Notes: generated from the sequence alone by a model not told the origin. A stretch of 64,000 nucleotides of DNA from Octopus vulgaris (GCA_951406725.2 OX597815.1:100626001-100690000); one strand, 5' to 3'. Numbered from the stretch's first letter, positions 24,757 through 55,634 are shown. Numbers and translations are program-made.

Positions 24757-27700
24757 TTATTGAATTCGTGTTTTCTTAAAACTAAATGGATAGCCATCTG
24801 TTTTCATTTTAGTTCTTTGCAGTTTCCACCTTTGGCCAGAAACTTTTTCCTCATCAAGTACACTACGACTTATGTCAGTGTCCACAGGTGTTCTGGGCAG
24901 AGGGTAAGGTTCTCGAGTTTCAAACATGTTGCCCTTTTTATCTACTCGTACTACATGTACACGGGGCATGTCACACAGGTGACTGGCTGAACTGCGTGAT
25001 GATGCTCGCAGACAGTCTACAATGGGTATTACCCCAGGGGGGAGGGCCTGATAGTCAGATGCTTTACTGTATGTTCGGCCAACACGGATCCGAGAAGTTG
25101 GGGACTGGGTTCTAGAGTAAGTCCTGATTGGTGGGGTCATGGATGTTTTCACAAGTTCATCATCCATACTACTTGATGATGATGCAGAAGAGGAGGGAGT
25201 TAACTGGGATACTTGTAAGGTATTTTCTGATACCTTAGAAGAGCTACTACTACTGCTTGTATTAGATACACTGGTGTTGCAAGTTGACACAGTATTTGCA
25301 TTATTAGATTTATTAGATTCGTCATTCGTGTGAGCTCGTCCACCAGTATCTGATTCTTCCAAGTCCCATTTAAAAGGTCCAAGTTTAACACGCTGCCGCA
25401 GTTCTTTTAGAGCACGATTATCTACAAATTTTTTATTAAAGTTGTCAGCACATGTACTACAACAATCATCTGCTGTACTGCAGCATGGCTGAGCTGCATT
25501 GCTTTTGCTATTTGTCCTGAGATGGTCTTGTGAAAGTTTAGAACTGATCTTTGTATCATTCATATTGTCTGTAAGAGCCAAATCAATTTGGTATTTTGAT
25601 GCACTGTCATTATTCGAATCAAGCTTTTGTTCCGACTTTGATCGGCGCATCTGTTGCAATACTGGTGTACTTTCATCAAGAGACTTTCTACTCCTCAGTG
25701 AACGCCTTGTTGATACATGCTTTGTGCTATCCTCCTTTTTACTTGTCTGGCTAGCTGACAGAGACTCTAATGAGCTCATTTGCTTCAGAGAGACAACAGG
25801 GTTTTCTTTCAAAAGATTGACACTGAGCTTTTTCTTTAATTTACATCTGGGTTCTTTTTGCTTAGAAGGTTCTCGAGAGATTTTTTTCAATTCAACTCCA
25901 ATTACTTTTTTAGAAGGGGTTTTTGTTAGGGATTTTTTGTGGGGTGATTTGGCAATTGTTTTGTGAGGAGTTGTAGTCAGTTTGGTTTTAAAGTTTGTTC
26001 TAGATACTTTTGAGGAATTTTTGGATGATTTTTGATTTGTTGTAGTGGAGGGTTTTACTTGACTTTGCAGAACACCACGTCGTTTGTTTGGTTGTGGACT
26101 TGGTGAGCGTTTCCGCTTGCAAGCCCGAACAGATCTTTTGTTCTTTCCATGACAATTCATGCACATTGTATTAACAGACAAAGCTATACTTTGAATATTT
26201 TTCATCAAGCTTTCTTTTAAACTACAACGACATATTGAATTGCCATCTAAAATACAACCCATACACTTGTTCTGAACACAGCTGGCCTGACAGCGTTTTT
26301 TGCAGCAACAGTATTTACATTTCCCATTCTTTAAGGATGGACGGTCTCGGCGAAGGCGTAAGTTTATAATATTTCCAGGGTTCAATAGTTGGGTTTTCAT
26401 TTGCTCAGCAGAGACAGTCTCTGCACTGGTCTTTCGGGGTCTTCCACGTAGCCTTCGACTGCCAGAGTCTGTCGATTCTTCTGAATGGCAACTATTTTCC
26501 TGCAGTTGTAATGCTAGCTCTTCACATTTACTGCTTTTATTAAAACTTTGCAAGTCATCTTCCTCACAGGTTACTTGCTCTTGTTTCTCATTCTTGCAAA
26601 TGTCAGAACTGTCATCCTTAATAGTTGATTTGGACTGACTATTGTAGGAAATTCCAACCTCACTTTTCTCCTCTACCTCGCACTTCACTTTTGAATCTGT
26701 CTTAATATCAACCTTAGATGAACTGTAAGTCTTAATAGAAGTAGATTTTTCAGTTTTTATTTCAGTTTGAGACTCTGATGAGGCACGTTCTTTCTCTCCA
26801 CTTTCCAAATTTTTATCCTCTTTTATATCAGATTCCATTACTGATTGATCAGTGTCTGCAATCAGAGTCTGTGAATTGAAATTCTCATTAGTTTTAATGT
26901 CGTCTGTTACAGACAAGTCGCATTTAATGTCACAAGACTTCTGAGGAGCACCTGTCACATCACCAACAGGTTTTTTACCATCACATAATAACCTGCTAAT
27001 TTCAGTGTCAGAAGAATTAGCCAACTCACATTTAAAATCTGATGGCTGGCTAGCAACATCACTGCAACTAACTGGTTGGCCTTCATTCACATCACTTTTG
27101 GTCTTGGAAATCAATTGTTCAGCTCCAAGAGTATCAGAACTCACAGAAGTTGTTTTGATTTCAGTATTATTTTCACTAGGTTTCTCCTCAACAGAATTTT
27201 CTGATATTTGTTCCAAATATTTATTTGGATCAATATCAACAGATGTACCAGGTAGTTGTGCATCCTCTTCTGATTTCTGACTAGTACTGGTGTTTTCAGG
27301 TTCTAAATTTTCTGTCATTTCCTTAGTCAAATCACTTTCAGTTTTACTGTTCACTAAACTTTCCAAAGCATTTTGTTCATCTTCACAAAGGGAGGGTTTA
27401 AGGCCTGTATCCACATTAGGAGAGTTGCAAACTTTGTGTGAAACTGGAATGTTAGAACTACTGTTTACAGAAATGACTAAATCTGATGTTTCTGATGATG
27501 ATGATGAGGAGGAGGAGGATGATGATGATTCAGCTGATGAAGAAGATATTAACTTAAAAGGCAATTTGCTAGACAGGCAAGGAGTTGAAGCAACAGATGT
27601 CTGTTGTACCATGTTGGAAGGAGAAGCAGTGTTTAAAGTAGGAGACAGAGAGTCAGCAGCACTGTTAATTAATTTTTGTGACTCTTTGATACAGGAAACT

Positions 27701-30700
27701 GGGGCTGATGACTGAGAGTTGGATACTTCCGAAGATAATGGTTCCATACATGATGGCGATGATGATGAGGAAGAGGAGGAGGCTGACACAGGCACCTTGA
27801 TAGGGTCTTGCACAGATGATGAAATAGGAGTTGCTGATGACTGCTCAGGAAGTTCTAGAGAAGAACATGATGCAGTAGATGAAGAATGTAAATGGGCATC
27901 TTCTGTTAAAGAAGAGGAAGATGTAGTGTGAATGGGTTCAAAAGGATGTGAAGAAGTGTTCTGATTACTAGTTGATTCAACTAAATTAGATGACAGTTCT
28001 GAAGACATCATCAAGTCTTCATCAATTGATGCTGATAGGGGCACTGATTCAGAAGAAGCTGATGATGCCACAATTGGCAAATCAGATTTATTAGATGATG
28101 GGGTAATTACATTAGAATCTGAAAAGTCAGTTGATGATGAAGGAGATGGCAATTTTTGACTGTGTGGAGGAGATCTGTGATTTGTAGATGAACAAGGCGT
28201 TGGAGATGGAGGGAAAGTAGAAGATATCGGTGTCACTGATGGTGAATCAAGTTTACATTCAATTGATTGGGATACTGTTGTTGGTACAATGTCATTAGAT
28301 GATGACAGTGTTGGAAGCTTGCTGTCAGATGATGATGATGATGATGAGAGTCCTAGCAAATCAGTGTCAGATGATGATGATGATGATGATGGACCTGGTG
28401 GTTTAGCACCAGATGATGATGATGATGATGATGAAGGCTCAGGCAACTTGACACTAGACAAAGAAGAAAGCACAGGGGATTTGGCGTCAAATGATGATGA
28501 CAAAGACCTTGATGGTTTACTAGCAGAGTGGAGTGAGTCTGAAGACTCAACAGGACTACAACTGGGAGTTTGTGTTATATTATTAGAAGATGATGGTAGT
28601 ATTCTTTTAGTAGAAGATGAAACTGATGTCTTAGAGCTTGCTACTGGAGTGGCTTTTGGCTTCTTAGAATAAGCAGATGAAGATGGGGCTGTCTCGGATG
28701 AAACAGATGAAGATGGAACAAACTCTTTGGAAAGAACAGAGGATGGGGTTGGTTCGTTGGTAGTGACAGAAGTTGATGACATTAAAGTTAGGTTATTTGG
28801 TGATGGGGCTGATTTAACTTCAGACGAAAGAACTAAATCTTTGGCACAATGAGATGAAGTAACAGAATCTGATGATGTTGAAACACTAGAGGAAGGAGCA
28901 GATGAAGTTAATGACTTACTTTCTACAGGAGACATCCTACTTGGGGACTTAATGGAAGGTAAGCTAGATGTGCATTTGGAGGAGTGATTACCTGATTTAG
29001 ATTGAGAAGGTGAATCAGACTCAATTACAACTTGATTTGATGAGGAAGCTAATTCTGAAGATGACTGAACAGACGATGAAATAGGAGTTGGGGATATGGA
29101 GTTAGAAGAGAATGTAGAAGAGGGAGATTTAGGGTCAGAGATTTCAGAATTTACATTTGAAGAGGAGGATGAAGTATTCTGACAGGAGACAACAACAGCA
29201 GACATTTTTGAACTGGTGGATGATGCAAGTTCTGTAGAGACAGAGTTTGGTGATGATATTATATCTACTGATGAAAGTGTGGTGTTGATACTAGAGGAGG
29301 AGCTTGTTATGGGAGTTAATGAATCAGAAGAGTGAGGCATTTTGGTATCAAAAATGCTAACAGAAACCGATGGGGGAATTGAAGAGGAACTTGGCCCAGA
29401 ATTACATGAAGATGAACTTTTGTTCAGAGAAGAGACACGAGAACTTTTTTCACCAGGTGGGAAGCTATTTCTCAAAGTAGAATTTGCATCTGTAGTATCA
29501 ACACTGACTGTAGAACTAAGAGAAGGAGTGTCAAAACCAGTAGCAGAACTAGAAACTGGGGTGTCACTAGCTGTAGCAGAACTGGAAGCTGGGGCATCAA
29601 TAGCAGAACTAGAAGCTGGAGCACCAGTAGCAGAACTACGAGGTAGAATTTTAATGCCATTAGTAGAATTGGTAGCTAGAGTATTCAGACTAGAGGTAGG
29701 GGTAACTGGTGAAGATTTTGAACCAGAAATTAGGGTAACCTCAGGAGCTGATTTGAGAGATGTCTCAGAATCTTTGATAAAATTGGAAGCTATCTTAGAA
29801 GTAGAGCTAGACGCAGGTTTCTTTTCAACACTAGAAGAGCTAAGTGCTGGTCTCTTGACATTAGAAATGGAGCTGGGAGCTTTTCTTTTGATACCAGATG
29901 TCACACTAGGCTCAAGTGTCTTGTCACTGCTTATGCTGCTCAGTGTTGCTGCTTCACTGCCAGATGTAGAGCTCAACATTGAACTTTTCACATCAAATTT
30001 AGAACTGGAAACTGCTGTTTTGGGATCAGAAATGATGCTAGGCATTGCTGATTTGGAACCAGTTAAAACAACTTTAGGCATTGGAGATTTAAGATTAGAG
30101 ATAGAGGAAGGTGTTGAAGTCTTAGTGATAATGGTAGAACTGGATGTTGAGGTCTTTGGTACAGTACTACAATTAGGAGCAGTGGTAGTCTTGGCTGCAG
30201 TGCTAGAGGAAGAAGCTGTAGTCTTAGAAGTAGAAGTAGGGGGTGTTGTTTTAGATGCAGTGTTAGAAGTAGGGGCTGTTGTCTTAGAAGCAGTGGTAGA
30301 AGTAGAAGTAGGGGGTGTTGTTCTAGATGCAGTGTTAGAAATAGGGGCTGTTGTCTTAGAAGTAGTGGTAGAAGTAGGTGTTGTCTTAGAAGCAGTGGTA
30401 GAAGTAGGTGTTGTTGTCTTAGAAGCAGCGGTAGAAGTAGGAGCTGTTGTCTTAGAAGCAGTGGTAGAAGTAGGGGCTGGTGTCTTAGAAACAATGGTAG
30501 AAGTACGAGTTGTTGTCTTAGAAGCAGTGCTAGAAGTAGGGGGTGTTGTCTTAGAAGCAGAGGTAGAAGTCGGGGGTGTTGTCTTAGAAGCAGTGGTAGA
30601 AGTAGGAGGTGTTGTCTTAGAAGCAGTGGTAGAAGTAGGAGGTGTTGTCTTAGAAGCAGTGGTAGAAGTAGGAGGTGTTGTCTTAGAAGTAGTGGTAGAA

Positions 30701-33700
30701 GTAGGAGCTGTTGTCTTAGAAGCAGCGATAGAAGTAGTAGGTGTTGTCTTAGAAGCAGTGGTAGAAGTAAGAGCTGTTGTCTTGGCAGTGATGGTAGAAG
30801 TAGGAGGTGTTGTCTTAGCAGTGGTGGTAGTAGCTGTAGTCTTGGAAGCAATAGTAGAAATAGGAGCTATAGCCTTAGAAGTAGTGGTAGAGGTAGGAGC
30901 TATAGTCTTAGTAATAGTGTTAGAAGTAGGCACTGTTGTTTTCGATGCAATAGTAGAGGAAGGAGAAGCAATGGTAGAAGTAGTGATAGAGGTAGAAGCT
31001 GTAGTCTTAGAAGTAGTGGTAGGAGTTGTAGTTTTAGTAGTAGTGGTGGTAGAAATAGGAGTTGTGATCTTAGAAGTAGTGGTAGAAGTGGGAACTGTAG
31101 TCTTAGGAGTTGTGGTGGAAGTAGAAACTGTTGGCTTAGATGCAGTGGTAGAAGTAGGCACTGTTGTCTTGGATGCAACAGTAATAGTGGTAGAGGAAGG
31201 AGAAGCAGAGCTGGGTGCCAGAGATTTGGATGTAGTATTGGAAAGGACCACAGTAGATTTGAGGGCAGATTTGGATATAAGTGTGTTGGAGGTTGAAGTA
31301 GAACTGGGTACTGCAGGAGAAGAGGTACAACTAAGTGATAAAGCTTTAGAAGTTGTTGTAGAGGTGACTGTAGCTATCTTGGATGTTGCTGTAGAAGTGG
31401 GTGGTGGTGTCTTGGGGGTTGTTGTAATACTTACTGATGTTTTTGTACTAGATGTAGAACTGGGGGTTGGTGTTTTGCTAGAAGTAGTAGTAGTAGAACT
31501 ACGTGCTGGAACTTTGGGAGTGGTTGCAGAACTGGGTGTTGGTGTTTTGGGGGCAGATGTTGAACTGGGAGTTGGTGTTTTGGTAGAAATAGTGGTAGTA
31601 GTAGTTGTAATAGAACTGGGTGTTGGTGCCTTGGGAGTAGATGTAGAATTTGGGGCTGATATTTTCATGTTAGATGTGGAACTGGGGGCTGATGTCTTGG
31701 TAGTTGCAGAATTGGGGGCTGGTGTTTTGGTGCTAGATGTAGAACTGGGGGCTGGTGCCTTGGGAGTAGCTGTAGAACTGGGTGCTGGTGCTTTGGGAGC
31801 AGTTGTAGAACTGGGGGCTGGTGCCTTGGGAGTAGTTGTAGAACTGGGGGCAGGTGCCTTGGGAGCAGTTGTAGAACTGGGGGCAGGTGCCTTGGGAGCA
31901 GTTGTAGAACTGGGAGTTGGTGCCTTGGGAGTAGTTGAAGAACTGGGGGTTGGTGCCTTGGGAGCAGTTGTAGAACTGGGGGCTGGTGCCTTGGGAGTAG
32001 TTGTAGAACTAGGGGTGGGTGCCTTGGGAGTAGTGGTAGAACTAGGGGCTGGTGTCTTGAGAGAAGTGGCAGAACTGGGGGCTGGTGCCTTGGGAGTAGT
32101 TGTAGAACTGGGAGTTGGTGCCTTGGAAGTTGCTGTAGAACTGGGAGTTGGTGTCTTGGGAGTAGCTGTAGATCTGAGTGCTGGTGTCTTGATGGTAGAT
32201 GTGGAACTAGGGGCTGGCATCTTGGTAGATGTAGAACTGGGGACTGGTGTCTTGGCAGATGTGGAACTGGGAGTGGGTGTTTTGTTAGATGTGGAACTGG
32301 GGGTAGGTGTTTTGCTAGATGTGGAACTGGGGGTGGGTGCCCTGTTAGATGTGGAACTGGGGGTTGGCGTCTTGGTAGAGGTGGAACTGGGGTATGGTGC
32401 CTTGGTAGAGGTGGAACTGGGGGCTGGTGCTTTGGTAGAGGTGGAACTGGGAGCTGGTGCCTTGGAAGAGGTGCAACTAGGGGCTGGTGCCTTGGAAGAG
32501 GTGGAACTGGGGGCTGGTGTCTTGGTAGAGGTGGAACTGGGGGCTGGTGTCTTGGTAGAGGTGGAACTGGGGGATGGTGCCTTGGTGATAGCTGAAGAGG
32601 TGGGTTCTGGTGTCTTGGGAGCAGATGTTGAGCTGAGAGCTGGGGCCCTAGAAACAGCTGTAGTGGTTGGTGATATGGATTTAGCTGTAGAGTTGGATGC
32701 TAGTATTTTGGGGGTATCTGTAGAACTGAATGCTGGTGTCTTGGGGGCTGAAGAAGAGCTGGGTATTGAGGTTTTGAGAGTTGAAGAGCTAGGGGTAGGT
32801 GGTGAGTTTGGTGATGGAAGGTGGGGGGTACATGTAGAAGTTGGTGATGATGCATTGTGGGTAGTTGTAGAAGTGGGTGCTGGTATTGTAGAAATGGGTG
32901 TTGGTGTTGTAGGAGATGAAGATGAGTTGGGTGATGATGTTTGTAAGGTTGAAGAAGAGCTTGGTGTTTGTGTCTTGGGGGCAGTTGTAGAAGTTGGTGC
33001 TTGAGTCTTGGGGACAGAGGTAGAGCTGGGAGCCAGGCTCTTAGGGAAAGATACAGAACTGAAGGCCTGTGTTTTGGGAGTAGTTGTAGAGGTGGGTGCT
33101 GGTGTCTTTGGAGCAGAAGTAGAGGTGGGTGCTGGTGTATTGGGGGAAGAGGTTGAGTTGGGTGCTGGTGATTCAGAGGCAGGGACTTGTGACTTAGGAA
33201 TAATTGTAGAGGTGAGCACTGGTGTTTTAGAGGCAGATGCAGAGCTAGGTGCTGGTATCTTAGAAGCAATTGTAGAGCTGATTGCCGGTGTCTTAGAGAC
33301 AGCTGTAATGCTTGGGACTGCTGTCTTGGGTGCAGCTGTAGAAATGGATGCTGATGTGTTAGGGGAAGATGTAGAAGTGATTACTGGTGTTTTGTGGGTA
33401 ATAGTAGAAGTAGTTGCTGGTGTCTTAGGATTAGTTGTAGAAGTGGGTGCTGGTGTCTTAGGCGCAGCTGTGGAAATGGATGCTGATGGCATGGGGGTAG
33501 ATGTAGAAGTGGTTGCTGGTGTTTTGGGGGTAGTTGTAGAGGTAAATGCTAATGTTTTGGGGGTAGATGTAGAAGTGGGTGCTGGTGTCTTGGGGGTAGT
33601 AGTAGAGATAGATCCTGATGTCTTGGATGTAGCAGGAGAAAGGGGTGTTGATGTTTTGGGAATAGTTGTAGAAGGGGGTGTCTTGGGGGTAGTTATAGAG

Positions 33701-34761
33701 GCAGCTGTTGGTGGCTTGGGGGTAGTTGTAGAAGTGGGCGCTGTTGGTTTGGTCTTGAGTGAAGATGCAGTATTGGCAGCCAAGGTCTTTGTTGTAGAAA
33801 CAATACTGGCTGGTGAAGCCTTGTGGGTAGAATTAGTGCTATGTGAAGGGACCTGTGGGGAAGATGTAGAGCTAGATGCCAAATTCTTTTGAATACAAAT
33901 AGAAACTGATGTTGGAGTACTGTGTTGAGAGCTTGAACTGGGCAATGGAATTATAGGAAGAGTTGTAGTGGTAGTTTCTGAAGCGTTAGATGTAGAGTTA
34001 AGAGTTAAAGACTTGGAGGAAGATGTAGAGGTGAGCACTGTTGTTTTGAGAGCAGATGAAGTTGTGGGTGTTAGCATTCTTGGGATGTCTGTTGTGGTAG
34101 AGACTGGTGTCTTTGAGGCATTTGTAGTAGTGGAAGCTGGTGTTTTTTGGACATCTATGGTGGTGGAGGCTGGTGTCTTTGGGACATCTGTAGTAGAGGC
34201 TGGTGTCTTTAGGACATTTGTTGTGATGGAGGCTGGGGTCTTTGCAGCATCTATAGTGGTGGAGACTGGTGTTTTTGGGACATCTGTTATGGTGGAGGCT
34301 TGTGTTTTTGAGACATTTGTTGTGGTGGGGGCTGGAGTCTTTTGGGCTTCTGTTGTGGTGGAGGCTGGTGTCTTTGTGGCATCTGTAGTGGTGGAGGCTG
34401 GTGTCTTTGGGGAGTCTACAGTAGTGGAGGCTGGTGTCTTGGAGAAAGACACTTGAGTTTTGACTGTAGATATTTTTGTAGTTGTTGATGTTTTAGGGAC
34501 AGTTGTCACAGTGGGTGCTGCTGCATTAGAGGAAGATGTGGTGGGGGCTGGTGTCTTGGAGGCAACTGTAGAGGTGCTTGTTTGGATTTTAGGAACAGAT
34601 GTAGAACTAGGAACTGGCATCTTGGGAGTAGCTGTAGAACAGGGTACTGGAGTTTTGAGAACAGGTGAAGAGTTTGGGGTAACTGTAGTAATGGTTGCTG
34701 AAATTTTTGAGAGAGATATAGAGCTGGGAGAAGCAGTAGTACTAGGTGCTGTAATTTTGGG
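24757..34761 (-). CDS. ZNF292/RLF/ZNF654-like gene, terminal exon 3' part (after the frameshift): Ser/Thr/Pro/Lys repeats, AT-hook, Cys cluster, basic NLS-like segments
   Basis: Stop-free frame from 34800 to TAA at 24759-24757 (the track ORF from the first ATG is 3287 aa). Composition continues that of the upstream frame. Contains RRLRGRPRK and KRKRSPSPQPNKRR. Confidence 0.85.
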   Translation of the reverse strand, partial: PKITAPSTTASPSSISLSKISATITTVTPNSSPVLKTPVPCSTATPKMPVPSSTSVPKIQTSTSTVASKTPAPTTSSSNAAAPTVTTVPKTSTTTKISTVKTQVSFSKTPASTTVDSPKTPASTTTDATKTPASTTTEAQKTPAPTTTNVSKTQASTITDVPKTPVSTTIDAAKTPASITTNVLKTPASTTDVPKTPASTTIDVQKTPASTTTNASKTPVSTTTDIPRMLTPTTSSALKTTVLTSTSSSKSLTLNSTSNASETTTTTLPIIPLPSSSSQHSTPTSVSICIQKNLASSSTSSPQVPSHSTNSTHKASPASIVSTTKTLAANTASSLKTKPTAPTSTTTPKPPTAASITTPKTPPSTTIPKTSTPLSPATSKTSGSISTTTPKTPAPTSTSTPKTLAFTSTTTPKTPATTSTSTPMPSASISTAAPKTPAPTSTTNPKTPATTSTITHKTPVITSTSSPNTSASISTAAPKTAVPSITAVSKTPAISSTIASKIPAPSSASASKTPVLTSTIIPKSQVPASESPAPNSTSSPNTPAPTSTSAPKTPAPTSTTTPKTQAFSSVSFPKSLAPSSTSVPKTQAPTSTTAPKTQTPSSSSTLQTSSPNSSSSPTTPTPISTIPAPTSTTTHNASSPTSTCTPHLPSPNSPPTPSSSTLKTSIPSSSSAPKTPAFSSTDTPKILASNSTAKSISPTTTAVSRAPALSSTSAPKTPEPTSSAITKAPSPSSTSTKTPAPSSTSTKTPAPSSTSSKAPAPSCTSSKAPAPSSTSTKAPAPSSTSTKAPYPSSTSTKTPTPSSTSNRAPTPSSTSSKTPTPSSTSNKTPTPSSTSAKTPVPSSTSTKMPAPSSTSTIKTPALRSTATPKTPTPSSTATSKAPTPSSTTTPKAPAPSSATSLKTPAPSSTTTPKAPTPSSTTTPKAPAPSSTTAPKAPTPSSSTTPKAPTPSSTTAPKAPAPSSTTAPKAPAPSSTTTPKAPAPSSTTAPKAPAPSSTATPKAPAPSSTSSTKTPAPNSATTKTSAPSSTSNMKISAPNSTSTPKAPTPSSITTTTTTISTKTPTPSSTSAPKTPTPSSATTPKVPARSSTTTTSSKTPTPSSTSSTKTSVSITTTPKTPPPTSTATSKIATVTSTTTSKALSLSCTSSPAVPSSTSTSNTLISKSALKSTVVLSNTTSKSLAPSSASPSSTTITVASKTTVPTSTTASKPTVSTSTTTPKTTVPTSTTTSKITTPISTTTTTKTTTPTTTSKTTASTSITTSTIASPSSTIASKTTVPTSNTITKTIAPTSTTTSKAIAPISTIASKTTATTTTAKTTPPTSTITAKTTALTSTTASKTTPTTSIAASKTTAPTSTTTSKTTPPTSTTASKTTPPTSTTASKTTPPTSTTASKTTPPTSTSASKTTPPTSSTASKTTTRTSTIVSKTPAPTSTTASKTTAPTSTAASKTTTPTSTTASKTTPTSTTTSKTTAPISNTASRTTPPTSTSTTASKTTAPTSNTASKTTPPTSTSKTTASSSSTAAKTTTAPNCSTVPKTSTSSSTIITKTSTPSSISNLKSPMPKVVLTGSKSAMPSIISDPKTAVSSSKFDVKSSMLSSTSGSEAATLSSISSDKTLEPSVTSGIKRKAPSSISNVKRPALSSSSVEKKPASSSTSKIASNFIKDSETSLKSAPEVTLISGSKSSPVTPTSSLNTLATNSTNGIKILPRSSATGAPASSSAIDAPASSSATASDTPVSSSATGFDTPSLSSTVSVDTTDANSTLRNSFPPGEKSSRVSSLNKSSSSCNSGPSSSSIPPSVSVSIFDTKMPHSSDSLTPITSSSSSINTTLSSVDIISSPNSVSTELASSTSSKMSAVVVSCQNTSSSSSNVNSEISDPKSPSSTFSSNSISPTPISSSVQSSSELASSSNQVVIESDSPSQSKSGNHSSKCTSSLPSIKSPSRMSPVESKSLTSSAPSSSVSTSSDSVTSSHCAKDLVLSSEVKSAPSPNNLTLMSSTSVTTNEPTPSSVLSKEFVPSSSVSSETAPSSSAYSKKPKATPVASSKTSVSSSTKRILPSSSNNITQTPSCSPVESSDSLHSASKPSRSLSSSFDAKSPVLSSLSSVKLPEPSSSSSSSSGAKPPGPSSSSSSSDTDLLGLSSSSSSSDSKLPTLSSSNDIVPTTVSQSIECKLDSPSVTPISSTFPPSPTPCSSTNHRSPPHSQKLPSPSSSTDFSDSNVITPSSNKSDLPIVASSASSESVPLSASIDEDLMMSSELSSNLVESTSNQNTSSHPFEPIHTTSSSSLTEDAHLHSSSTASCSSLELPEQSSATPISSSVQDPIKVPVSASSSSSSSSPSCMEPLSSEVSNSQSSAPVSCIKESQKLINSAADSLSPTLNTASPSNMVQQTSVASTPCLSSKLPFKLISSSSAESSSSSSSSSSSSETSDLVISVNSSSNIPVSHKVCNSPNVDTGLKPSLCEDEQNALESLVNSKTESDLTKEMTENLEPENTSTSQKSEEDAQLPGTSVDIDPNKYLEQISENSVEEKPSENNTEIKTTSVSSDTLGAEQLISKTKSDVNEGQPVSCSDVASQPSDFKCELANSSDTEISRLLCDGKKPVGDVTGAPQKSCDIKCDLSVTDDIKTNENFNSQTLIADTDQSVMESDIKEDKNLESGEKERASSESQTEIKTEKSTSIKTYSSSKVDIKTDSKVKCEVEEKSEVGISYNSQSKSTIKDDSSDICKNEKQEQVTCEEDDLQSFNKSSKCEELALQLQENSCHSEESTDSGSRRLRGRPRKTSAETVSAEQMKTQLLNPGNIINLRLRRDRPSLKNGKCKYCCCKKRCQASCVQNKCMGCILDGNSICRCSLKESLMKNIQSIALSVNTMCMNCHGKNKRSVRACKRKRSPSPQPNKRRGVLQSQVKPSTTTNQKSSKNSSKVSRTNFKTKLTTTPHKTIAKSPHKKSLTKTPSKKVIGVELKKISREPSKQKEPRCKLKKKLSVNLLKENPVVSLKQMSSLESLSASQTSKKEDSTKHVSTRRSLRSRKSLDESTPVLQQMRRSKSEQKLDSNNDSASKYQIDLALTDNMNDTKISSKLSQDHLRTNSKSNAAQPCCSTADDCCSTCADNFNKKFVDNRALKELRQRVKLGPFKWDLEESDTGGRAHTNDESNKSNNANTVSTCNTSVSNTSSSSSSSKVSENTLQVSQLTPSSSASSSSSMDDELVKTSMTPPIRTYSRTQSPTSRIRVGRTYSKASDYQALPPGVIPIVDCLRASSRSSASHLCDMPRVHVVRVDKKGNMFETREPYPLPRTPVDTDISRSVLDEEKVSGQRWKLQRTKMKTDGYPFSFKKTRIQ
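30230..30820 (-). repeat. Coding minisatellite, 33-bp unit (ASKTTPPTSTT)
   Basis: Repeated gtcttagaagcagtggtagaagtaggaggtgtt on +. Confidence 0.9.
31730..32580 (-). repeat. Coding minisatellites: 33-bp unit (PKAPAPSSTTA) then 30-bp unit (KTPAPSSTST)
   Basis: Repeated gtagaactgggggctggtgccttgggagcagtt and gtggaactgggggctggtgtcttggtagag. Confidence 0.9.
34090..34445 (-). repeat. Coding minisatellite, 33-bp unit (PKTPASTTTDx)
   Basis: Repeated gtggtggaggctggtgtctttg on +. Confidence 0.85.
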
Positions 34762-37700
34762 AGAGATGCAGAGTTGGGGGTCGGTGCTGTAGAGGTTGCT
34801 TTAACACTGGGTGCTGGAGTTTTGTAGGAAAAAACAGAGTTAGGAGCTGATGAATTGGAGGTGGTTGTAGGAGTGAGTGTTGTTGTTTTGGAGATAGGTG
34901 TAGAACTGAGTGTTGGAGTTTTAGGGATGGGTGTGTTGAGGGAAGTTGCAGAACCAGAGTCAGGTGTCCTGGGGGTAGTAGTAGAACTAGGTGCTGGAGT
35001 TTTGGAGGAAATGGTAGAAATAGGGGCTGGTGTTTTAGAGACAGCTGTTGAGGTGAGTGATTGAGTTTTGGGGACATATGTAGAGCTGGAGACTGGTATA
35101 TTAGGGGAAGATGTAGAACTAGGTGCTGGAGCTTTGGAGACAAATGTAGAGTGAGAAGCTGGTGCCTTGGGGGAAGATGTAGAGTTAGAGGGAACAGATG
35201 TACAGCTGAGATCCAGAGTTTGAGGGTTAGCTGTAGAAGTAGTAGATGATGTGCAAGGAGAATATGTAGGCTTAGGGGGATATGTAGAGCTGGGTGTTGG
35301 TGTCACAGAAACTGATATGACTGGTGTTGTGATGGAGAATGAGTCACTGGAAGTTATTGGTTTCTGAGGTCCAGAGGTATCAAGAGATTTTGTTTTAATA
35401 GATGTGCTGTTAGGTGGCACTGTTTTGAGAATGGTAGATTTTACTGAGTTGGGAGTGGAGGATGAAACTGTACTAGAAAGTTTGGTGACAGAAGAAACTG
35501 AATCAAGTGCTTTAGGTAAAGTAGAAGTGGTATTAGTAGTTAAACTGGTAGGTAGCATCTTAGAATTATCTGTTGCTGAGCTGAAAGCTGATGTTTCGAG
35601 GCTACCTGAGGAGCTAGCAACTAAATCCCGAGAAATATCTGTTAAGCTGCCATCTAGTGCTTTCAAACTGTCAGAGCTGGGGACTGATATATGTGGAGAA
35701 TCAGAAATTCTGAGAGCTGATGTTTTTGGACTATCAGTTGAAGTTCTAGGATTAAGAGTAGAGCTGGAAGCTGTTGTGATAGAGGTATCAGTGGAGGTGG
35801 GTGCTAAGGTCTTACAGTTATCAGAAGAGCTAGAAGCCAACATCTTGGGACCATCAGAAGAAATGGGCACCAAGGTCTTGGGGCTACTGATAGAGCTGGA
35901 AGCCAAGATTTTAGGACTATCAGTCAAGTCGGGAGCTGAGGTTTTGGTGCCAAGAGATTTGCTGTCCGATGAGGTTGTGAAACTACCACTTGATCTCATA
36001 GAATTAGGATCATTAAGTGCTAGTGGCTTTGTATCAGCACTTGAACTAATAGTTTTTAGTCCAGCTGACAAAAGTTGTGGATCAGATGAACTGGGAATTG
36101 AAGTCTTAGATGTTGACAATGAACTAGAAGCAGTAATACCAGAGGTTAACGGCAATGATTCAGATATATTGGGTGTACATGAAGATGAAGACAAGTCAGT
36201 AACTAATGTCTTGGTATCAGATGTACTTCTTTTTGTAGTTTGTAGATCAGAGGAGTTCGGTGTAGAAGTGGAGCTGGGAGTAGGAGTAGATATCTTCAAA
36301 GGAGCAGGAGAAGTAGAGATAGGCTGGGGATCTCTTTCAGTTGTAACAGAGATGGTAACTGGAGTCTTTTCAGTCACAGTAGGATTGGAAGTTGGAGGTG
36401 ACTTACTCATAATGTTGACATTGGAACTTGAAGAAATAGATGTGGAAATGTTGAGATCAGAAGAACTAGGAGTTGGGGGCTGTACAAAACTATCACTGGA
36501 TGCTTTGGTGTTAGAAGTTGATGCAGAAACAGGACTAGCCAAAACAGTGGGAACAAGGGATGATGTACCAGAAGAATCGGCCAAGTGATTATTGATAACT
36601 GACAGAGAACTGGCAGCAGAATTATTAGTTGAGTTCTTAAGAAGAGGAGAACAATTAGTTGAGATACTGGGAGTAACTGAACAAGAAACCCTCAAATTGT
36701 TTTCAGAAACAACAGGTAATATCTTTGCAGGAGTGAGAGAATGAGATAAACTAGCAGACTGAGGTGTGTTTTTGAGTCCTAGGGAGTTATTCTGAGCATT
36801 AAAATTTTGCTTATCAAATGAACTAGAAGATGAGGTTTCAGATGATGAACAGGATTTTGGAGTGTCAGTGGCAGGCAAGGAACCAGAAATAGAAGTGTTG
36901 GCAACTGCAGTTTCAGTAGAAGACAAAGAACTGGAAACTGAAGTCTTGATAACAGGGAGGATGTCAGATGCCCTATTATCATTAATATGTAATGAACTTG
37001 GTATTAGAGCATTGGTAGTAGATGAGGAGCTGGCCACTATAGATGATGGGATCATAGTAGAGGAAGAGGTAAAAGTTGAAGTATCAGTAGCAGAAGAGGA
37101 AGTGAATGTTGAGGAGTTGGATACTGGAACCTTAGCATTAGGTGATGAGCTAAGTTCTGGATTTTTAGTGGCAGATGGAATAACCCTGACACTAGGTACT
37201 TCAGACATTATGTCTGATGATGAATTAGAAACTAGTAGTGGGGTACTTTTTGATGAGTCTGGACCAAGTGGAATTGGAGTAGAAGAAACAAGTTTAGTAT
37301 TTGGAGATAAACTTGATACCGAAACCTTTGGGTCTGATGATGAGATATTGGTTGATGTTTCAGTATATGGAGGCAAACTAAGAGTTGGAGTAATAATATT
37401 TGTAGATAAGCAAGGGACCAAAATCTTGGGATCTACTGAAGAAATGGGAGTTTGGAGTTTTATTGGTGAAAGTGATACATTTAGATGAGGGAAAGTGTTT
37501 TTGCTTGAAGTAGCAGTGCAAAACTGTGGACTATGTAGAGAGTGAGGAGTAGTTTGTAGGGTACTAGAGCCTAATGTACTGGGTAGTGAAGTTTGTGTGT
37601 CAGAACTAAAAGGAACAGAGTGAGAAGAGGATGGAGTTAAATGAGTAGATGGTACTGGAGAAATAGCTTTAGAGACAACAGATTGCTTAGAAGAATAGGT

Positions 37701-39876: not shown

Positions 39877-39929
39877 GGCATTTTGTCTGATGCTCTAATG
39901 ACTTAACCAATCCATTATCCTAATAATAA

Positions 39930-42950: not shown

Positions 42951-43173
42951 TAAATATATTAATAATGGGAAAAGAAGTGAAGGAGCAAGTGTTGAAATGG
43001 TGTGGTGGGGAGTTGAAACAACAAAAGTACAAGTGAAACAAGGAGTGGTAATAGAAAGCATAGTAGAAAGAGAAACGTTTTGCTGAGGTCAAAAAGAGAT
43101 TGATATTTGCTTGAACTGGCTTTTCTTCTAGTACTAGAAAAGTATATAAGTGATTTATGACACATCATCTTAC

Positions 43174-46100
43174 CTTTTACTGGCAGTTCTTGACTTCTCT
43201 CAACAGATTTCAATTTTATGTTATCCAAACTGCCTGCTTTCACAGCTTCTGCAGATGATGTATTGGTTACTTTGAGACAGTCTCCTGACTCACTGGTAAT
43301 TACAGGCAAACAAGATTTGACTACATTGTTTGTGATGGGTTCTGTACTAGCTGGGTTTTTGTTGCTATCAGTTAAAGTAGATGATGTACTATCTCCTGAC
43401 TCAGAAGAAACTGTTGACAAACAGGCTTTGGTTACATTGTTTGTGGATGGGTCTGTACTAGCTGGTTTTACACTGCCTTCAATTAAAGTAGACAATGCAT
43501 TATCACCAGAATTGCCACTATTTACATCAAGCATCAGTTTATCTGGTTTACTCTGGCTTGTATCTGACAATAGTGGTAATTCCTGGTCTTCTTTAGCTAC
43601 AACAGATTTATCATTTGCTGTTATAGGAGTTTTACACAACGTTACATCTTCAATGAAAGATGCAGCTGTTTTCTGAACAGTTTCATCTATTGAAGCTGTA
43701 TTTGTAGAAATTTCATACATATCTTTGGCAGTAATATTTTGTGACAATCGTGATTTACAAGGTTCTGGCAACAACTGAGCAGCCGTCTCTTTAGATGTCT
43801 CCATCACTGATTTCTTGTTAACATAAGACACACTATCAATATTTCCTAGAACTTGATCGTTCATGCCAACAATACTTTGCAGAAGATTGTGCATAACATG
43901 CAGAATATCTTGTTTAGTTTTATTATCAACATCACAGCTGGCTGACATGAAATTTGATATAGTGCTTTGAGAAATATTACTTAGGCTTGCGTTTCGATTA
44001 AACTTTCTTTTGGATGGTTTTCTTCGTTTTCTTTTAAGAAAGGACCCAATTTCTTCCTCTGGTGGTGGCCATACAAGTTTTAACTGTGTCTTTTTTTGGG
44101 CTCCCTTGCCACTAACAACTGCAGTTTTCTCTTCTTGACATGTTTCCTTAACCCACCGGCAGTTCAGCTCTTTAAGAATGTGAGTCGCATGGTTGGGAAT
44201 GTGATTGATATATTTAAACCAAACTCGAAAAGCAATCTGACAATATACACAAGTAAATATCACTATAGGCTTGCTCAATTCAGAGACAGTTTCCTTAGTG
44301 TATGGTTGGAGATGAGTAATGGCAAGGTGCTTTACAAAATTTGAACGGTTGCGAAAATGGAAATCACATTTTCGGCAATATGGTGATAAAATACGCATCT
44401 TTCTACTTGGGGACATCGTCATTGTGCCATCACCAACAAGTAGCAATTCATCTTCACTCACAACACTCTTTGTCTCAATGGTTTCAATGACTTTATTAAC
44501 AACAGGGGGAGAATCTTGCAAAGGTTTATCTGGTTTGACTGGTTTCCTTGGTAAGAACTGATTTTCCATTTCTGACTTAATTTGAAGCATTGTTCTCTTA
44601 ATACATTCATCATTGTTCATGTTGGATCTATTAGAGCAAGTTGCTGGTTGATCTGTTTTCACAGCTTTACTTTCTACTTCCTGGTGGGCCATTGAGGAAT
44701 TCTGCACAGAACTATTTGGTTGATTAGGAATTTCTTCTTCACTGCAAACTGAACGGGAGTTATTTTTGTCAGTGATTTCAGTTGGTTCAATTTTTATTTG
44801 AGCATCTGATAAGCTCAATTGTTGGGAGACTTTACGTAACTTGATGATACGTTCACAATCAGGACAATGTTTAGGTTTTTCAGGCTGGGGCAAGTTTGCT
44901 GTAGCAGAAGGTGCGTCTTCTACTTTGCTGGTACCTGTAACAGTTGTCTGGTTCACTTTGGTTGTATTCACTGTAGTAAGATTATTTTGTGGATGAGATG
45001 TAGACCCTTCTGTCGCTTGTGAATCAGGTGTCACAACTTCTGTTTTTATATTGACTAAAGGTTTCACTATATTTGCTTTTTTAATACGTCTTCTGATGTC
45101 ATTCCTTTTCTTACAAGCTTCCTGGTGAAGTCTAAGTCGATGTGGGCCAAGCAGCAGACGACTGCAGATCTGACATTTGAAATATTCTTCACTTGTTTGT
45201 TTAACTTTGGGTTTTTTATCCTCTTTGTTTTCAGGATCAACCTCCAGTTGTTCCTCTTTACATTTGAAGACAGTGTTCGTTGTGGTTGTCTCCATGGTGG
45301 CGTTTATAACTGGAGATGTTGTCACATCACTTGAAGAGCCTTCTTTGCTGACTGGAGTCTTCATTGAACGCTCCTCAGTAGGGCAAATGGATGGCTTTGA
45401 GACATTGATTGTTTCAGTTCCAGGAACAGAAGGAACCACTTCTTGCTGCTTTTTAGGCACTTCTTTTTCAGGTGCTTTTGTTTTGGGATCCTCTAAAGTC
45501 AATGAGGGTTTTTTCTGTATTTGGCTTTTCTCTGCCAAGGAAGAGGTATTAGTTGATTTGGAAGTTTTCTTTACTAGGGGTACGCCACACAGTCTCAAAT
45601 GGTCATCCATTTCCTTACGAGTGCATGTGTATTGCAAACACTTAAGGCATTTAAAGAATTTAATTTTGCTGAGAGCAGAATCTTTTGCACAGAATATTGT
45701 AGCTGCTTCAGTTAGATTCTGCAGATCTGACACAGAAGCTTTACAAATAGATTGAATATGATTTTTCAGTTCAGAAACCTGGTCAAAAAAGTCACAACAA
45801 ATTCCACAGCGATACACCACAACATAATTCTTTCTTCGCCTTGAACTTGGTTTACTGTTCTGTTGTGTGAGTAAAGCCATTTCAAATTGGCTAACAGATT
45901 TCAGAAACTGACAATAACGGTCAATGTAAGATTTTTCTATTTTAGAAAGGAAAAACTTTTCAGTAGAGCAACCTGCATTATTTCCAGTAAGTGATGATAT
46001 GCAAGACTGAAGTTTTTCAAGTAATCGATCACTAGTAGGAATTTCTGAACTTACTTGATCCTCATTAATACCACTAGAAACATATAAACTTTTTGATGGA

Positions 46101-47677
46101 GTATCTTTGCCATCTTTGATTTCAGATGTTTGTTGAAGGTTTTTATCACATTTTGCAGACTTGTCTGATTTTTTCCCTGACTTAGTTTTAGTTTTACATA
46201 CGCACTTGCAGGGTGCAGTAACATTTACATTACCATCAGAAATGGAAGGTAATGATTTGTTACAATAGCAATGACTATCCTTCGTTCGAGCTTTATGCAG
46301 CTTATCAGAAGCATGTTGTGTTTGCATCAGTGAAGAAGAAGAAGATGAATTGTCACCAATGTTGGAAAAATCAATCTGGCTCTCAAAAGAGAGGCATGTA
46401 TGAACACTGCCAGATCTATCACAACTGCATGTGCCTAAAGTTGATGCACCACAATTAGGGAAGCCATTACCACTGCAGTGACTCACCTGTTGGTTTTTAA
46501 TGTCTCTTTCACAAGCATTTTGAATCTTGGAGGCCTCTGACATTGAATGCCGATGATCCCTTGACTGAATGCTATAGGGCTGTGTCGACAAATCTTTGTT
46601 AAAAGCCTCAAAGAGGTTTCTATTAGAGATACTATTTGGATACGTTTGATTCAAATGACAGCTATTTTTAGGGAGATTTTGTTTGCAATTACAAACCTCT
46701 TCAGTTACCTGGCAGCTTTTGGGAAGGCCACAAGCACACTTAGCTTCTGGTTTTGTTCCAACTTGATGCCCTCCTACTGAACCCTCCTCTGGTTCAGTGC
46801 AATTTTCTTGAGATGTTACTGTAGCGGCTGTTGTTGCTGAAGCTGCTGTTGTTACTGAAGCTGTTGCTGTATGTGGTTGTGAAGGAGGTGATGAAAAAAT
46901 TACATTAGAGTTTACATTTTCTTGAGAACATTGTTCAGTAAAGGCAGCCATTTCATTATTCTGAACTGCTGCTTCAGAGAGGGGCTGCTCTTCATCAAAG
47001 TTAGAAAATTCACTACATTCATCAGTGCTTTCTTCATGAAGAACCATTAACATTTCTTGATGTTGTGTCAGATGTTCCATACACATGGCATGCAAATCAC
47101 TAAATGACATTTCTATATCCAGGTGAAACGGACATATATTATTGAGCAGTCGTTCTATTTCATATAGATTGGCTGGATTCACAGACAAATTGCAGTATTC
47201 CACATTGTCAACAGTACGATGGGACATAGAGTGCCGGTTGCGTTGTGTCCGTTGTTTCTCTTTGGATTTTTTCACCTCTTTCGTTGGACTTACATGCAAG
47301 CCATCAAGCATGTTAGTAAGTTTGTTGACATACTTATTAGGGCTGCTACCATCAATATCGTTGTGATGGCTGCTACTGCCACCCAACGAAGATGAATTAG
47401 AGTTATTATTATTAGAATGGAATATTGAGTAGACAATCTCAAAATTTTCTTCACTAGGATCAAGAGCAAAAGCTGTGAGTCCTGACAGTTTAGCAAGTTT
47501 TTGACTGAGACCATCATAAAGATTCATGATCATTTGGCTGGTTTTGGAAAGTGCTACATTTCGGCAAAGAATCAACTCCATATCTTTATCTGCAACAGCT
47601 TGTTCTAAACAACCTTTGTCCAAATTGAAAGCATAGATACATAAATTGGTGTTCAATTGCAGAAATGTATCTCCAGC
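43174..47677 (-). CDS. ZNF292/RLF/ZNF654-like gene, 4.5-kb exon: end of the N-terminal domain plus five C2H2/C2HC zinc fingers
   Basis: Acceptor attccAG|GCT, donor AAAG|gtaaga. Fingers CGICCDFFDQVSELKNHIQSIC, CLKCLQYTCTRKEMDDHLRLC, CQICSRLLLGPHRLRLHQEAC, CRKCDFHFRNRSNFVKHLAITH and CVYCQIAFRVWFKYINHIPNH. LCIYAFNLD...LTAFALDPSEENF resembles ZNF292 LCVKALRLE...LSEFLIEPT. Confidence 0.88.
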
Positions 47678-48210: not shown

Positions 48211-48247
48211 GGAGTACATATAAATAAATAATCCAAGAGAAAAATAC

Positions 48248-48388
48248 CTCTTCTCGTAGAGACTCCACAAGGAATGTTATTTGTTCAGTGTGTTGTGATA
48301 GTTTGGCAATGGCCCAAACACTGTCAGAAAACTTGTCCAAATCACCGTCGACCAAGTATTGGAGTCGTATCCACAATTTCAATAATGT
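48248..48388 (-). CDS. ZNF292-like coding exon
   Basis: tttctAG|ACA...GAG|gtattt; 141 nt; TLLKLWIRLQYLVDGDLDKFSDSVWAIAKLSQHTEQITFLVESLREE, comparable to ZNF292 ELTLFWSKLQQRVEPS...HIFFLIKVINSE. Confidence 0.85.
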
Positions 48389-50811: not shown

Positions 50812-50958
50812 CTTGGTACCACTATCAGCAGATACTCCTCTCAACCAATTCTGCACAAGAAATGTTTGAGCTATCATCACACAAAATCCCTGATGTGATT
50901 CACAATCTTGTAAATTCTTGATGATTTGCACTGCCATCTCACAAGAGATCTTTGAACA
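50812..50958 (-). CDS. ZNF292-like coding exon
   Basis: ttttcAG|TGT...AAG|gtatgt; 147 nt; CSKISCEMAVQIIKNLQDCESHQGFCVMIAQTFLVQNWL, comparable to ZNF292 ISEVDCKDALEMICNLESE...LCTAFLSRQL. Confidence 0.85.
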
Positions 50959-52168: not shown

Positions 52169-52371
52169 ATCCTCTTGTAGTTTTTCTACATTTGCAGAAC
52201 GGTAAAGCATTAAAAGTTGAGTCTCACGCAACTGTACATTGTCAGCAAGTTCAGGATGAAGAAAACACCATCTACAAAGATTCATGGCAAATTCTTCACA
52301 ATTTTCATCTAACAGCATCTCAACTCGGACTTTTAGCACCATGGGGTCTTCTTCAGCAAAGTATTCCATTA
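52169..52371 (-). CDS. ZNF292-like coding exon
   Basis: ccttAG|TA...GAT|gtaagc; 203 nt; VMEYFAEEDPMVLKVRVEMLL...CFLHPEL...KLQED, comparable to ZNF292 VNEFLAFEGPILLDMRIKHLI...CSDHPEI...KLIEE. Confidence 0.88.
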
Positions 52372-52832: not shown

Positions 52833-53053
52833 CTTCACTTTCTTCAAGATCATCAGCACCAGCCATGATCCTGCTAAGAGTTGGATGATCCCAGTGGGTC
52901 TCCATCAGTTTCTTAATCAGCTGGAATTTACCATAATTGAACCGCTCCAGTTGTGTGTGGACAGCATCCACAGTTTCTCGGAACTTCTGCCGACATGTAT
53001 TTTCATTAGATAATTCTCTCCACTTGACATCCAATACTGCTTTAATACATAGT
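52833..53053 (-). CDS. ZNF292-like coding exon
   Basis: tttcAG|A...G|gtaaat; 221 nt; LCIKAVLDVKW...QKFRETVDAVHTQL...WDHPTLSRIM, comparable to ZNF292 EQFQTLVQVAHEKL...WKNPVLCTIL. Confidence 0.85.
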
Positions 53054-54064: not shown

Positions 54065-54106
<42 letters not shown>

Positions 54107-55488: not shown

Positions 55489-55634
55489 CTAAATAATTGC
55501 TGACAAATTTTCTCTTTGGAATCATAAACTGCCAGCTCTCCATAGCTGGCAGCATAGTGGCAGAGGAAAATACACAGGGAGAAAACATACTCTTCATAGC
55601 TGTCGTTGTGTTTGTCTAGAAACTTTTGTAAGAT
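55489..55634 (-). CDS. ZNF292-like coding exon (most 5' confidently placed)
   Basis: ttttcacAG|ATC...AG|gtaaat; 146 nt, open (ILQKFLDKHNDSYEEYVFSLCIFLCHYAASYGEL...CQQLF). Phase 2 matches the next exon. Confidence 0.7.

What the first reader, a model, noticed from the sequence alone, without database searches (positions are those of the whole stretch)
24757..55634. Giant (~6,300 aa) invertebrate ZNF292/RLF/ZNF654-family protein with a 13.5-kb mucin-like terminal exon
Seen: seven phase-compatible exons (146+221+203+147+141+4504+~13,530 nt). From knowledge: the small exons align by eye with the N-terminal domain of vertebrate ZNF292/RLF, including several intron positions, and those proteins are ~1,900-2,700 aa. 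Here five fingers are followed by over 3,000 residues of Ser/Thr/Pro/Lys low-complexity sequence, then an AT-hook, a Cys cluster and NLS-like segments. No signal peptide is visible in the exons found. Inference: a nuclear chromatin protein with an enormous disordered spacer between two DNA/chromatin-binding ends. Automated annotation would probably split it into a 'zinc finger' and a 'mucin'.
Basis: partly seen in the sequence, partly recalled or inferred. Interest (0 to 1): 0.75.

Follow-up and report, generated by a model that had tools for sequence, protein, structure and literature searches.

The report
Giant octopus ZNF292/RLF-family chromatin protein
This is a real, spliced octopus gene related to the human gene regulators ZNF292 and RLF, predicted to encode a nuclear protein of about 6,330 amino acids once a likely one-letter assembly error is allowed for; its mollusc relatives are also very long, and its mucin-like middle is likely a repeat-swollen flexible linker rather than a mucin.

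Summary
The gene is real. Seven AG/GT exons are phase-compatible; an eighth, the first coding exon, lies about 65 kb upstream, outside the window. As assembled, the 13.5-kb last exon is NOT one frame: it breaks at ~34754 and stops after about 3,084 aa. All 4 of 4 sequencing runs laid carry one extra base there, and the O. bimaculoides model reads through, so this is most likely an assembly deletion; the corrected length is about 6,334 aa. Contigs from 3 of 3 RNA-guessed runs join 43174 to 38287. Orthologues pass Pfam's TPR_Rlf cut-off, and the N-terminal domain aligns end to end with frog ZNF292. No signal peptide, transmembrane helix or mucin domain was found. Size is a mollusc trait: 15 of 16 bivalve/gastropod hits are 3,605-6,248 aa, with five dispersed fingers and often the same C-terminal motif. 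Octopus-specific is the expansion of the post-finger linker from ~1,700 to ~4,300 aa by Lys-periodic 11-residue Ser/Thr/Pro repeats; other molluscs expanded unrelated repeats. Best reading: a single-copy ZNF292/RLF-type chromatin scaffold with a permissive disordered linker. Function is untested. No reads cover the last ~7.8 kb.

The parts
55489..55634 (-). Coding exon 2 (146 nt), N-terminal helical domain. Coding exon 1 (111 nt, conserved Met, phase-0 GT donor) lies outside the window at G000:C2:100746407-100746517, across an intron of about 64.8 kb
52833..53053 (-). Coding exon 3 (221 nt)
   Evidence: on spliced contigs X9 record 26 and X11 record 6
52169..52371 (-). Coding exon 4 (203 nt)
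   Evidence: X11 record 6 joins 52371 to 52833
50812..50958 (-). Coding exon 5 (147 nt); start of the Pfam TPR_Rlf region
   Evidence: PF25580 E=0.012 on this exon alone
48248..48388 (-). Coding exon 6 (141 nt)
43174..47677 (-). Coding exon 7 (4,504 nt): end of the helical domain (to ~47070), five fingers, basic run at 44035
45113..45808 (-). Three dispersed CCHC-type zinc fingers (start 45808, 45649, 45175)
   Evidence: matching fingers in bivalves and gastropods
44189..44377 (-). Pair of C2H2 zinc fingers (start 44377, 44251)
   Evidence: BLASTP E 1e-9 to 3e-4 against gastropod and bivalve orthologues
38288..43173 (-). Intron splitting the giant exon; spliced in RNA-guessed contigs, apparently absent in another coleoid
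   Evidence: table 8; P0003 is one uninterrupted ORF on a 426-kb contig
24757..38287 (-). Last coding exon, 13,531 nt as assembled (13,532 with the base shown by reads)
34754..34758 (.). Frame break: T run one base shorter than in 4 of 4 laid runs; likely assembly error
   Evidence: table 4; P0001 reads through; no convincing small intron (best donor 5 of 9 consensus letters)
29953..35189 (-). 33-nt (11-residue) Ser/Thr/Pro/Ala repeats with a Lys every 11 residues; net charge +121 over 1,600 aa; almost no aromatic residues
26431..26448 (-). AT-hook-like RGRPRK (pattern match; label recalled, no Pfam hit)
   Evidence: kept in P0002 and P0003
26149..26319 (-). Cys cluster conserved in coleoid orthologues, followed by basic KRKR at 26118; fold unknown
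24760..24843 (-). Mollusc-wide C-terminal motif (W-K/R ... F/Y-P-F/Y-S-F-K/T-K/R)
   Evidence: profile from 9 bivalve/gastropod C-termini ranks it first of 1,028 six-frame pieces, E=4e-4, next 0.56

Best explanation
This is a spliced octopus gene of the ZNF292/RLF/ZNF654 family that likely encodes one nuclear protein of about 6,334 residues, predicted to work as a chromatin scaffold whose mucin-like middle is likely a disordered linker enlarged by tandem repeats. Shown: exon chain, splice into the last exon, family domain, five fingers, no secretion signal. Inferred from reads: the frame break is an assembly deletion. Inferred from vertebrate relatives: the ~530-aa N-terminal helical domain is a protein-binding platform for co-regulators (human RLF co-precipitates KDM1A/LSD1, RCOR1 and CBX5), and the dispersed fingers with the basic/AT-hook tail hold it at promoters and enhancers. 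Inferred from comparison: the linker's exact sequence and length are loosely constrained; it grew by in-frame 33-nt minisatellite expansion inside a giant exon and would be a substrate for proline-directed phosphorylation and O-GlcNAc rather than secretory O-GalNAc.
For: Exon chain and phases. 4 of 4 runs restore the frame and 3 of 3 RNA-guessed runs join 43174/38287, while the DNA-guessed run continues into the intron. PF25580 passes cut-off in P0001, P0002 and 8 of 8 other full-length mollusc proteins scanned. Frog ZNF292 E=8e-11, collinear over ~440 aa. One locus found in G000. A complete 3,783-aa orthologue on ~12.7-kb contigs carries both ends. The terminal motif is shared with bivalves and gastropods. 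Highest 19-residue hydropathy is 1.37 in the two large exons and 1.31 in the N-terminal 600 aa of P0001, and the N-terminus is charged. Linker 4,285 aa against 1,729 and 1,675 aa in two other coleoids. In-frame indels of up to ~200 residues against O. bimaculoides, which is 97% identical elsewhere. Unrelated repeats in scallop, periwinkle, mussel and clam orthologues. Vertebrate function: PMC4381397 (section 9 and passages read), PMC12283078 (passages). Same gene plan as human ZNF292, eight exons with the last holding ~85% of the protein: PMC13512819 (passages).
Against: No reads were laid on 24757-34000; the RNA-guessed contigs extend only 1,456 letters beyond 34000 (to ~32,540 if collinear), so a hidden intron or a shorter isoform in the repeats is not excluded. 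Run types are guesses and all are contigs. Only the N-terminal domain links it to vertebrates: the fingers do not hit the ZN292-type finger family that frog ZNF292 hits, and there are 5 fingers, not 16. No experiment on any mollusc member was found. Which part of RLF binds LSD1/CoREST was not stated in what I read. The regular Lys spacing (81 of 128 gaps are exactly 11) could mean selection rather than drift. Only one vertebrate member was retrieved, so orthology was not tested on a tree.
Confidence: 0.72

Rival explanations
1. Same gene and protein, but the octopus repeat block is an adaptive device: a ~1,600-residue polycationic brush (one Lys per 11 residues) that coats or bridges chromatin or drives condensates and is switched by phosphorylation or O-GlcNAc, working like Ki-67 or MDC1 repeat regions (comparison recalled).
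For: Net +121 with 15 acidic residues in 1,600 aa; K-S/T-P seen 39 times against 10 in shuffles (repeats are not independent). Kept in frame in two Octopus species at 89-93% identity. Long exons encoding disordered regions are enriched in nuclear genes (PMC9825244, passages).
Against: Absent from the two other coleoid orthologues (lag-11 identity 0.12-0.17 against 0.59). Other molluscs expanded neutral, Gln-rich or acidic repeats at other places. Large indels between close species. No full CDK site in the core (0 against 10 in shuffles).
Confidence: 0.15
2. The main product is shorter: the frame break is a real allele giving a ~3,084-aa protein, or most transcripts skip or end within the repeat block.
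For: The assembled letters give a stop at 34506-34508. Scallop models have isoforms of 3,605 and 4,010 aa. 7 of 16 non-cephalopod models lack the terminal motif. No read cover below ~32,540.
Against: 4 of 4 runs from up to four studies carry the extra base in a homopolymer. P0001 reads through. The downstream frame is open for 3,347 codons and ends in a conserved module.
Confidence: 0.09
3. The Ser/Thr-rich exon is a separate or alternative secreted mucin next to a zinc-finger gene.
For: Composition and repeats are mucin-like (S+T 43% in the linker); orthologues are auto-named mucin-like; Pfam 'Mucin-like' hits the scallop P0024.
Against: Direct splice from the finger exon in 3 of 3 RNA-guessed runs. 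No Pfam family at E<=1 in either frame of the exon. No transmembrane or signal segment. The C-terminus is basic and belongs to the zinc-finger protein in other molluscs.
Confidence: 0.03

Closest known systems
Vertebrate ZNF292 / RLF / ZNF654 (Pfam PF25580 TPR_Rlf)
   Same: N-terminal helical domain aligned over ~440 aa with frog ZNF292 (21% identity between P0002 and frog); small exons for that domain followed by giant coding exon(s); widely spaced fingers; basic NLS-like runs
   Different: About 6,334 aa against 2,664 (frog); 5 fingers (3 CCHC + 2 C2H2) against 16; no hit to the ZN292-type finger PF25420; giant exon split by one intron; a 4,300-aa Ser/Thr linker; a C-terminal module not detected in frog ZNF292
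O. bimaculoides LOC106877042 (XP_052821856.1, 'uncharacterized, partial')
   Same: Direct orthologue, 97% identical over the finger exon, same splice junctions, same repeats
   Different: The public model stops at 4,259 aa inside the repeats and lacks the C-terminal module
Unnamed bivalve and gastropod PF25580 proteins (e.g. XP_060587858.1, XP_069141478.1, XP_070193168.1)
   Same: N-terminal domain 33-44% identical to the coleoid one, five matching fingers in most, 3,600-6,250 aa, shared terminal motif in 9 of 16
   Different: S+T+P 0.19-0.27 against 0.44; bivalves put the long linker before the fingers; different repeat units; the coleoid AT-hook/Cys module was not detected in them
Secreted and membrane mucins, lubricin-type repeats (recalled)
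   Same: Ser/Thr/Pro-rich tandem repeats in one giant exon
   Different: No signal peptide, transmembrane helix, or vWD/SEA/cystine-knot domain
Nuclear proteins with giant repeat exons such as Ki-67 and MDC1 (recalled, not tested)
   Same: Giant exon encoding disordered Ser/Thr/Pro/Lys repeats between small functional ends
   Different: No sequence relation shown; the repeats here are lineage-specific

Membership tests
ZNF292/RLF/ZNF654 | N-terminal TPR_Rlf domain (PF25580) above the curated cut-off | tested here: met
   46.5 and 44.4 bits against 27 in P0001 and P0002; window exons are 96-100% identical to P0001 there. The spliced window protein itself was not scanned; one exon alone gave E=0.012
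ZNF292/RLF/ZNF654 | Significant similarity to a named vertebrate member | tested here: met
   Frog ZNF292 E=8.1e-11, the only named non-mollusc among 20 hits; collinear alignment
ZNF292/RLF/ZNF654 | Widely spaced zinc fingers after the N-terminal domain | tested here: met
   Five dispersed fingers, conserved across molluscs
ZNF292/RLF (vertebrate paralogues in the strict sense) | 16 C2H2 fingers including the ZN292-type finger PF25420 | tested here: not met
   5 fingers; PF25420 hits frog ZNF292 but none of the mollusc proteins scanned. So it is filed under the family by its N-terminal domain, not as ZNF292 or RLF proper
ZNF292/RLF/ZNF654 | Small N-terminal exons plus a giant terminal exon, shared intron positions | tested here: inconclusive
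   Gene plan matches PMC13512819. Octopus introns map to frog residues 55, 106, 178, 246, 292, 339; from recall five of these match human junctions, but no vertebrate gene was fetched and a paper search did not confirm them
ZNF292/RLF/ZNF654 | Nuclear localisation, DNA binding, LSD1/CoREST association | not testable with these tools
   Shown for RLF and ZNF292 (PMC4381397, PMC12283078); here only basic runs and the lack of a secretion signal
Mucins | Ser/Thr/Pro-rich tandem-repeat domain | tested here: met
Mucins | Signal peptide or transmembrane segment | tested here: not met
   Hydropathy scan only, no dedicated predictor
Mucins | vWD, SEA, CysD or cystine-knot domains | tested here: not met
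   0 Pfam families on both frames of the last exon and on its last 597 aa
AT-hook proteins | RGRP core flanked by basic residues | tested here: inconclusive
   Pattern present and kept in 2 of 2 coleoid orthologues that reach it; no Pfam AT_hook hit

The most novel reading that the evidence does not exclude
Octopuses have turned the linker of an ancient ZNF292/RLF-type epigenetic regulator into a ~1,600-residue, Lys-periodic Ser/Thr/Pro brush: a nuclear 'mucin' that tethers a co-repressor-binding head to a coleoid-specific AT-hook/Cys-cluster tail across hundreds of nanometres and is switched by phosphorylation or O-GlcNAc, a new chromatin-organising device in the lineage with rearranged genomes and large brains.
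Probability: 0.15. Interest if true: 0.72.

Novelty: new variant of a known kind. Interest (0 to 1): 0.4.

Why it matters
It gives a complete model for a gene that public annotation leaves partial (O. bimaculoides) or mis-names as mucin or adhesin (scallop, periwinkle), and it flags a one-base error that would halve the protein in this assembly. It shows that the ZNF292/RLF family, studied only in vertebrates in the papers I found and linked to neurodevelopmental disorder, has giant mollusc members in which the N-terminal helical domain, not the finger array, is the conserved core. That points to this domain as the ancestral working part. A natural series of linkers (1,100-4,800 aa after the last finger, with unrelated repeats) makes it testable whether the length and chemistry of giant disordered regions matter in chromatin regulators.

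Tried and rejected
Small intron as the cause of the frame break: no good splice sites, and contigs are collinear through it. Programmed frameshift: unnecessary, since the DNA-guessed run also has the extra base. First exon inside the window or in the next 40 kb: not found. Genome search with PF25580: 2 weak hits with stops elsewhere, none over the cut-off, and it missed this locus because the exons are short, so it says little about paralogues. Solved-structure search with the N-terminal alignment: nothing at E<0.8. Fold of the AT-hook/Cys region from 3 sequences: pLDDT 43, uninformative, not searched further. Atlas look-up of the N-terminal domain gave no result. The N-terminal domain was not folded and no full-library profile search was made for it, so its spread outside molluscs and vertebrates stays open. 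No run is on record as RNA ('no RNA holder listed'); labels are guesses. The bacterial promoter scan is irrelevant to this organism. Long plus-strand frames at 29336-36585 were taken as antisense shadows of the repeats (not tested further). RTYSR/RTYSK at the C-terminus resemble Pds5-binding YSR motifs (recalled) but occur at this place only in coleoids; not pursued. Literature: searches for ZNF292/RLF/ZNF654, Zfp292+Rlf+CoREST (34), ZFP292+LSD1 (64), ZNF292+octopus (67: 1 listing, unrelated by title), ZNF292+invertebrate (68: 6 listings, none on this family by title or abstract start) and the locus, accession and Pfam ids (65: 0) found no description of mollusc members; one search was badly formed and uninformative. 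The library lacks most subscription papers, and supplements were not read, so orthologue tables may already list the gene. Earlier findings of this scan: none.
Full report
Observation. The assembled last exon is not one reading frame: it holds two overlapping frames, 38381-34509 and 34800-24760, and the spliced frame stops after 3,047 codons. The Ser/Thr register passes from one frame to the other at about 34755. No plausible small intron explains this (best donor 5 of 9 consensus letters).

Reads. I laid 4 of the 24 listed runs (20 hold the stretch) on 34000-53500. All 4 (three guessed RNA, one guessed DNA, up to four studies, all contigs) have one more T behind 34754, in a T run, which restores the frame. 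In 3 of 3 RNA-guessed runs a single contig passes from 43174 straight to 38287, while the DNA-guessed contigs run on into the intron. One contig (X9 record 26) carries the 221-nt exon and the 4.5-kb exon with 492 letters between, the sum of the three small exons. The contigs over the junction extend 1,456 letters beyond 34000, to about 32,540 if collinear, inside the repeat array. No reads were laid on 24757-34000 or above 53500, so continuity of the last ~7.8 kb rests on other evidence: a 3,347-codon open frame where ~150 stops are expected, repeat periods that are all multiples of 3 (27 of 27 rows against 4 of 17 outside coding sequence), and orthologues.

Missing first exon. The O. bimaculoides orthologue P0001 (XP_052821856.1, 4,259 aa, 'partial', 97% identical) has 37 more residues from the conserved Met. 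They lie in a 111-nt exon with a phase-0 donor about 65 kb upstream, outside the window, at G000:C2:100746407-100746517. The gene thus has eight coding exons and about 6,334 codons; an in-frame ATG 19 codons further up is used in the public model. P0001 has the same junctions and reads through the break in one frame. The organism is inferred to be an Octopus species from this identity.

Family. P0001 and P0002 pass the cut-off of Pfam PF25580 (TPR_Rlf), as do 8 of 8 further full-length mollusc proteins scanned (a C-terminal fragment scanned with them had no hit). A search with the first 530 residues of P0002 returned 20 proteins: 3 coleoid, 16 other molluscs (one unnamed, placed by similarity) and frog ZNF292 at E=8e-11. 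The domain aligns end to end with frog ZNF292. Human ZNF292 has eight exons, the last coding ~85% of the protein and all 16 fingers (PMC13512819, passages read), so small exons plus a giant exon is the family's normal plan. Octopus introns map to frog residues 55, 106, 178, 246, 292 and 339; that five match human junctions is recalled and was not verified. Against a closer filing: there are five fingers, three CCHC and two C2H2, which match mollusc fingers but not the ZN292-type finger family. Two searches of the own genome found only this locus, so it is probably the single counterpart of the three vertebrate paralogues; no tree was built.

Size. Of 16 non-cephalopod hits 15 are 3,605-6,248 aa and one is 2,835 aa. 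That search only admitted 2,080-6,621 aa; a second one over 927-2,645 aa gave 5 proteins that look like fragments. Giant size is therefore a mollusc trait, and a clam model of 6,248 aa is nearly as long. Some orthologues are auto-named mucin-17-like, fap1 adhesin-like or serine-rich repeat protein-like.

Both ends belong together. P0002 (3,783 aa, 25 cluster members, contigs ~12.7 kb) runs from the conserved Met to the same last residues as the window's exon, 52% identical over 722 aa of the tail. P0003, an ORF on a 426-kb contig, runs without a break from inside the finger exon to the stop, which suggests that the intron at 43173-38288 is an octopod gain. A profile built only from the last 42 residues of 9 bivalve and gastropod proteins ranks the end of the window's exon first of 1,028 six-frame pieces (E=4e-4, next 0.56). 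I chose those 9 of 16 by eye after seeing the motif; of the other 7 none scored above 0.7 bits, and several may be short isoforms. The larger AT-hook/Cys module is narrower: a search of 1.84 billion representatives with the last 597 aa found only 2 proteins, both coleoid-like, Pfam found nothing, and a fold from 3 sequences was uninformative.

The linker. Between the last finger and the AT-hook lie ~4,285 residues (S+T 43%) against 1,729 and 1,675 (S+T ~32%) in the other two coleoids. Its core is ~1,600 residues of 11-mers (types such as PKAPAPSSTTT and ASKTTPPTSTT) with a Lys every 11 residues, net charge +121 and nearly no aromatics. This periodicity is missing in P0002 and P0003. It differs from O. 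bimaculoides by in-frame indels of up to ~200 residues. Scallops have an unrelated Gln-rich 11-mer before the fingers, periwinkle a 14-mer, one mussel a 12-mer and the clam an acidic 38-mer. Repeated independent expansions of unlike chemistry fit a permissive disordered linker better than a conserved device, though they do not exclude a later function in octopus. No transmembrane or signal segment was seen by hydropathy and no mucin accessory domain by Pfam. Long exons coding disordered regions are enriched in nuclear genes, and repeat expansion is one proposed route (PMC9825244, passages read); the exon is C-rich (30%, core 38%), as reported for such exons.

Mechanism. Human RLF co-precipitates KDM1A, RCOR1, CBX5 and the MRN complex, and one of two finger fragments binds DNA (PMC4381397, section 9 read). 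ZNF292 occupies promoters and distal elements in human neural progenitors (PMC12283078, passages read). As the helical N-terminal domain is the only part shared with vertebrates, I infer that it is the co-regulator-binding core, that fingers and basic tail give chromatin contact, and that the linker is a flexible, modifiable spacer. None of these steps is shown for the octopus protein. Confidence 0.72; adaptive chromatin brush 0.15; shorter main product 0.09; separate mucin 0.03.

Novelty. The family domain is already assigned by Pfam on public mollusc proteins, but my searches (open-licence library only, supplements not read) found no paper on invertebrate members. Other papers in those listings were seen as titles and abstract starts only; PMC11790513 was searched by passage and was irrelevant. 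The mollusc architecture, the coleoid tail and the octopus repeat block make this a new variant of a known kind. It is a sound annotation result with a moderate surprise, not a new system: interest 0.40.

Noticed in passing
window 200-679 and 3865-4260 (+): Exons of a ribophorin I gene (PF04597, E 1e-24 and 2e-28) on the plus strand, converging on the 3' end of this gene.
   Followed up: partly
window 49542-50446: Long near-perfect inverted repeat inside an intron: arms of 226 nt (97%) and 94 nt (98%) around a ~290-nt loop, next to an 88-nt direct duplication at 48819/49448. It could form a long RNA hairpin (possible A-to-I editing substrate) or be an assembly artefact; read depth is low there.
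   Followed up: no
window 43281-43502: 111-nt (37-residue) in-frame tandem duplication near the end of the finger exon, 74% identical.
   Followed up: no
window 43372: T>C in 3 of 3 RNA-guessed runs and 0 of 1 DNA-guessed run; A>G on the sense strand, Thr to Ala. It looks like recoding, but the genome-based O. bimaculoides model already has Ala, so a polymorphism is more likely.
   Followed up: partly
window ~40250-41500 (-): Decayed transposase-like frames with many stops inside the intron that splits the giant exon (by eye; family not identified). Perhaps related to how this intron arose.
   Followed up: no
window 25134 and ~25085 (-): RTYSR and RTYSK motifs in a block almost invariant among coleoid orthologues; they resemble YSR motifs that bind cohesin's Pds5 (recalled).
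   Followed up: no
window 35049-35086: Cluster of differences and 1-base gaps near the ends of short contigs in the RNA-guessed runs; probably mis-laid repeat copies or a repeat-unit allele.
   Followed up: no
P0023/P0041 (Argopecten), P0027 (Ruditapes): Scallop models have isoforms of 3,605 and 4,010 aa; the clam model (6,248 aa) has six clustered fingers rather than the 3+2 pattern.
   Followed up: no
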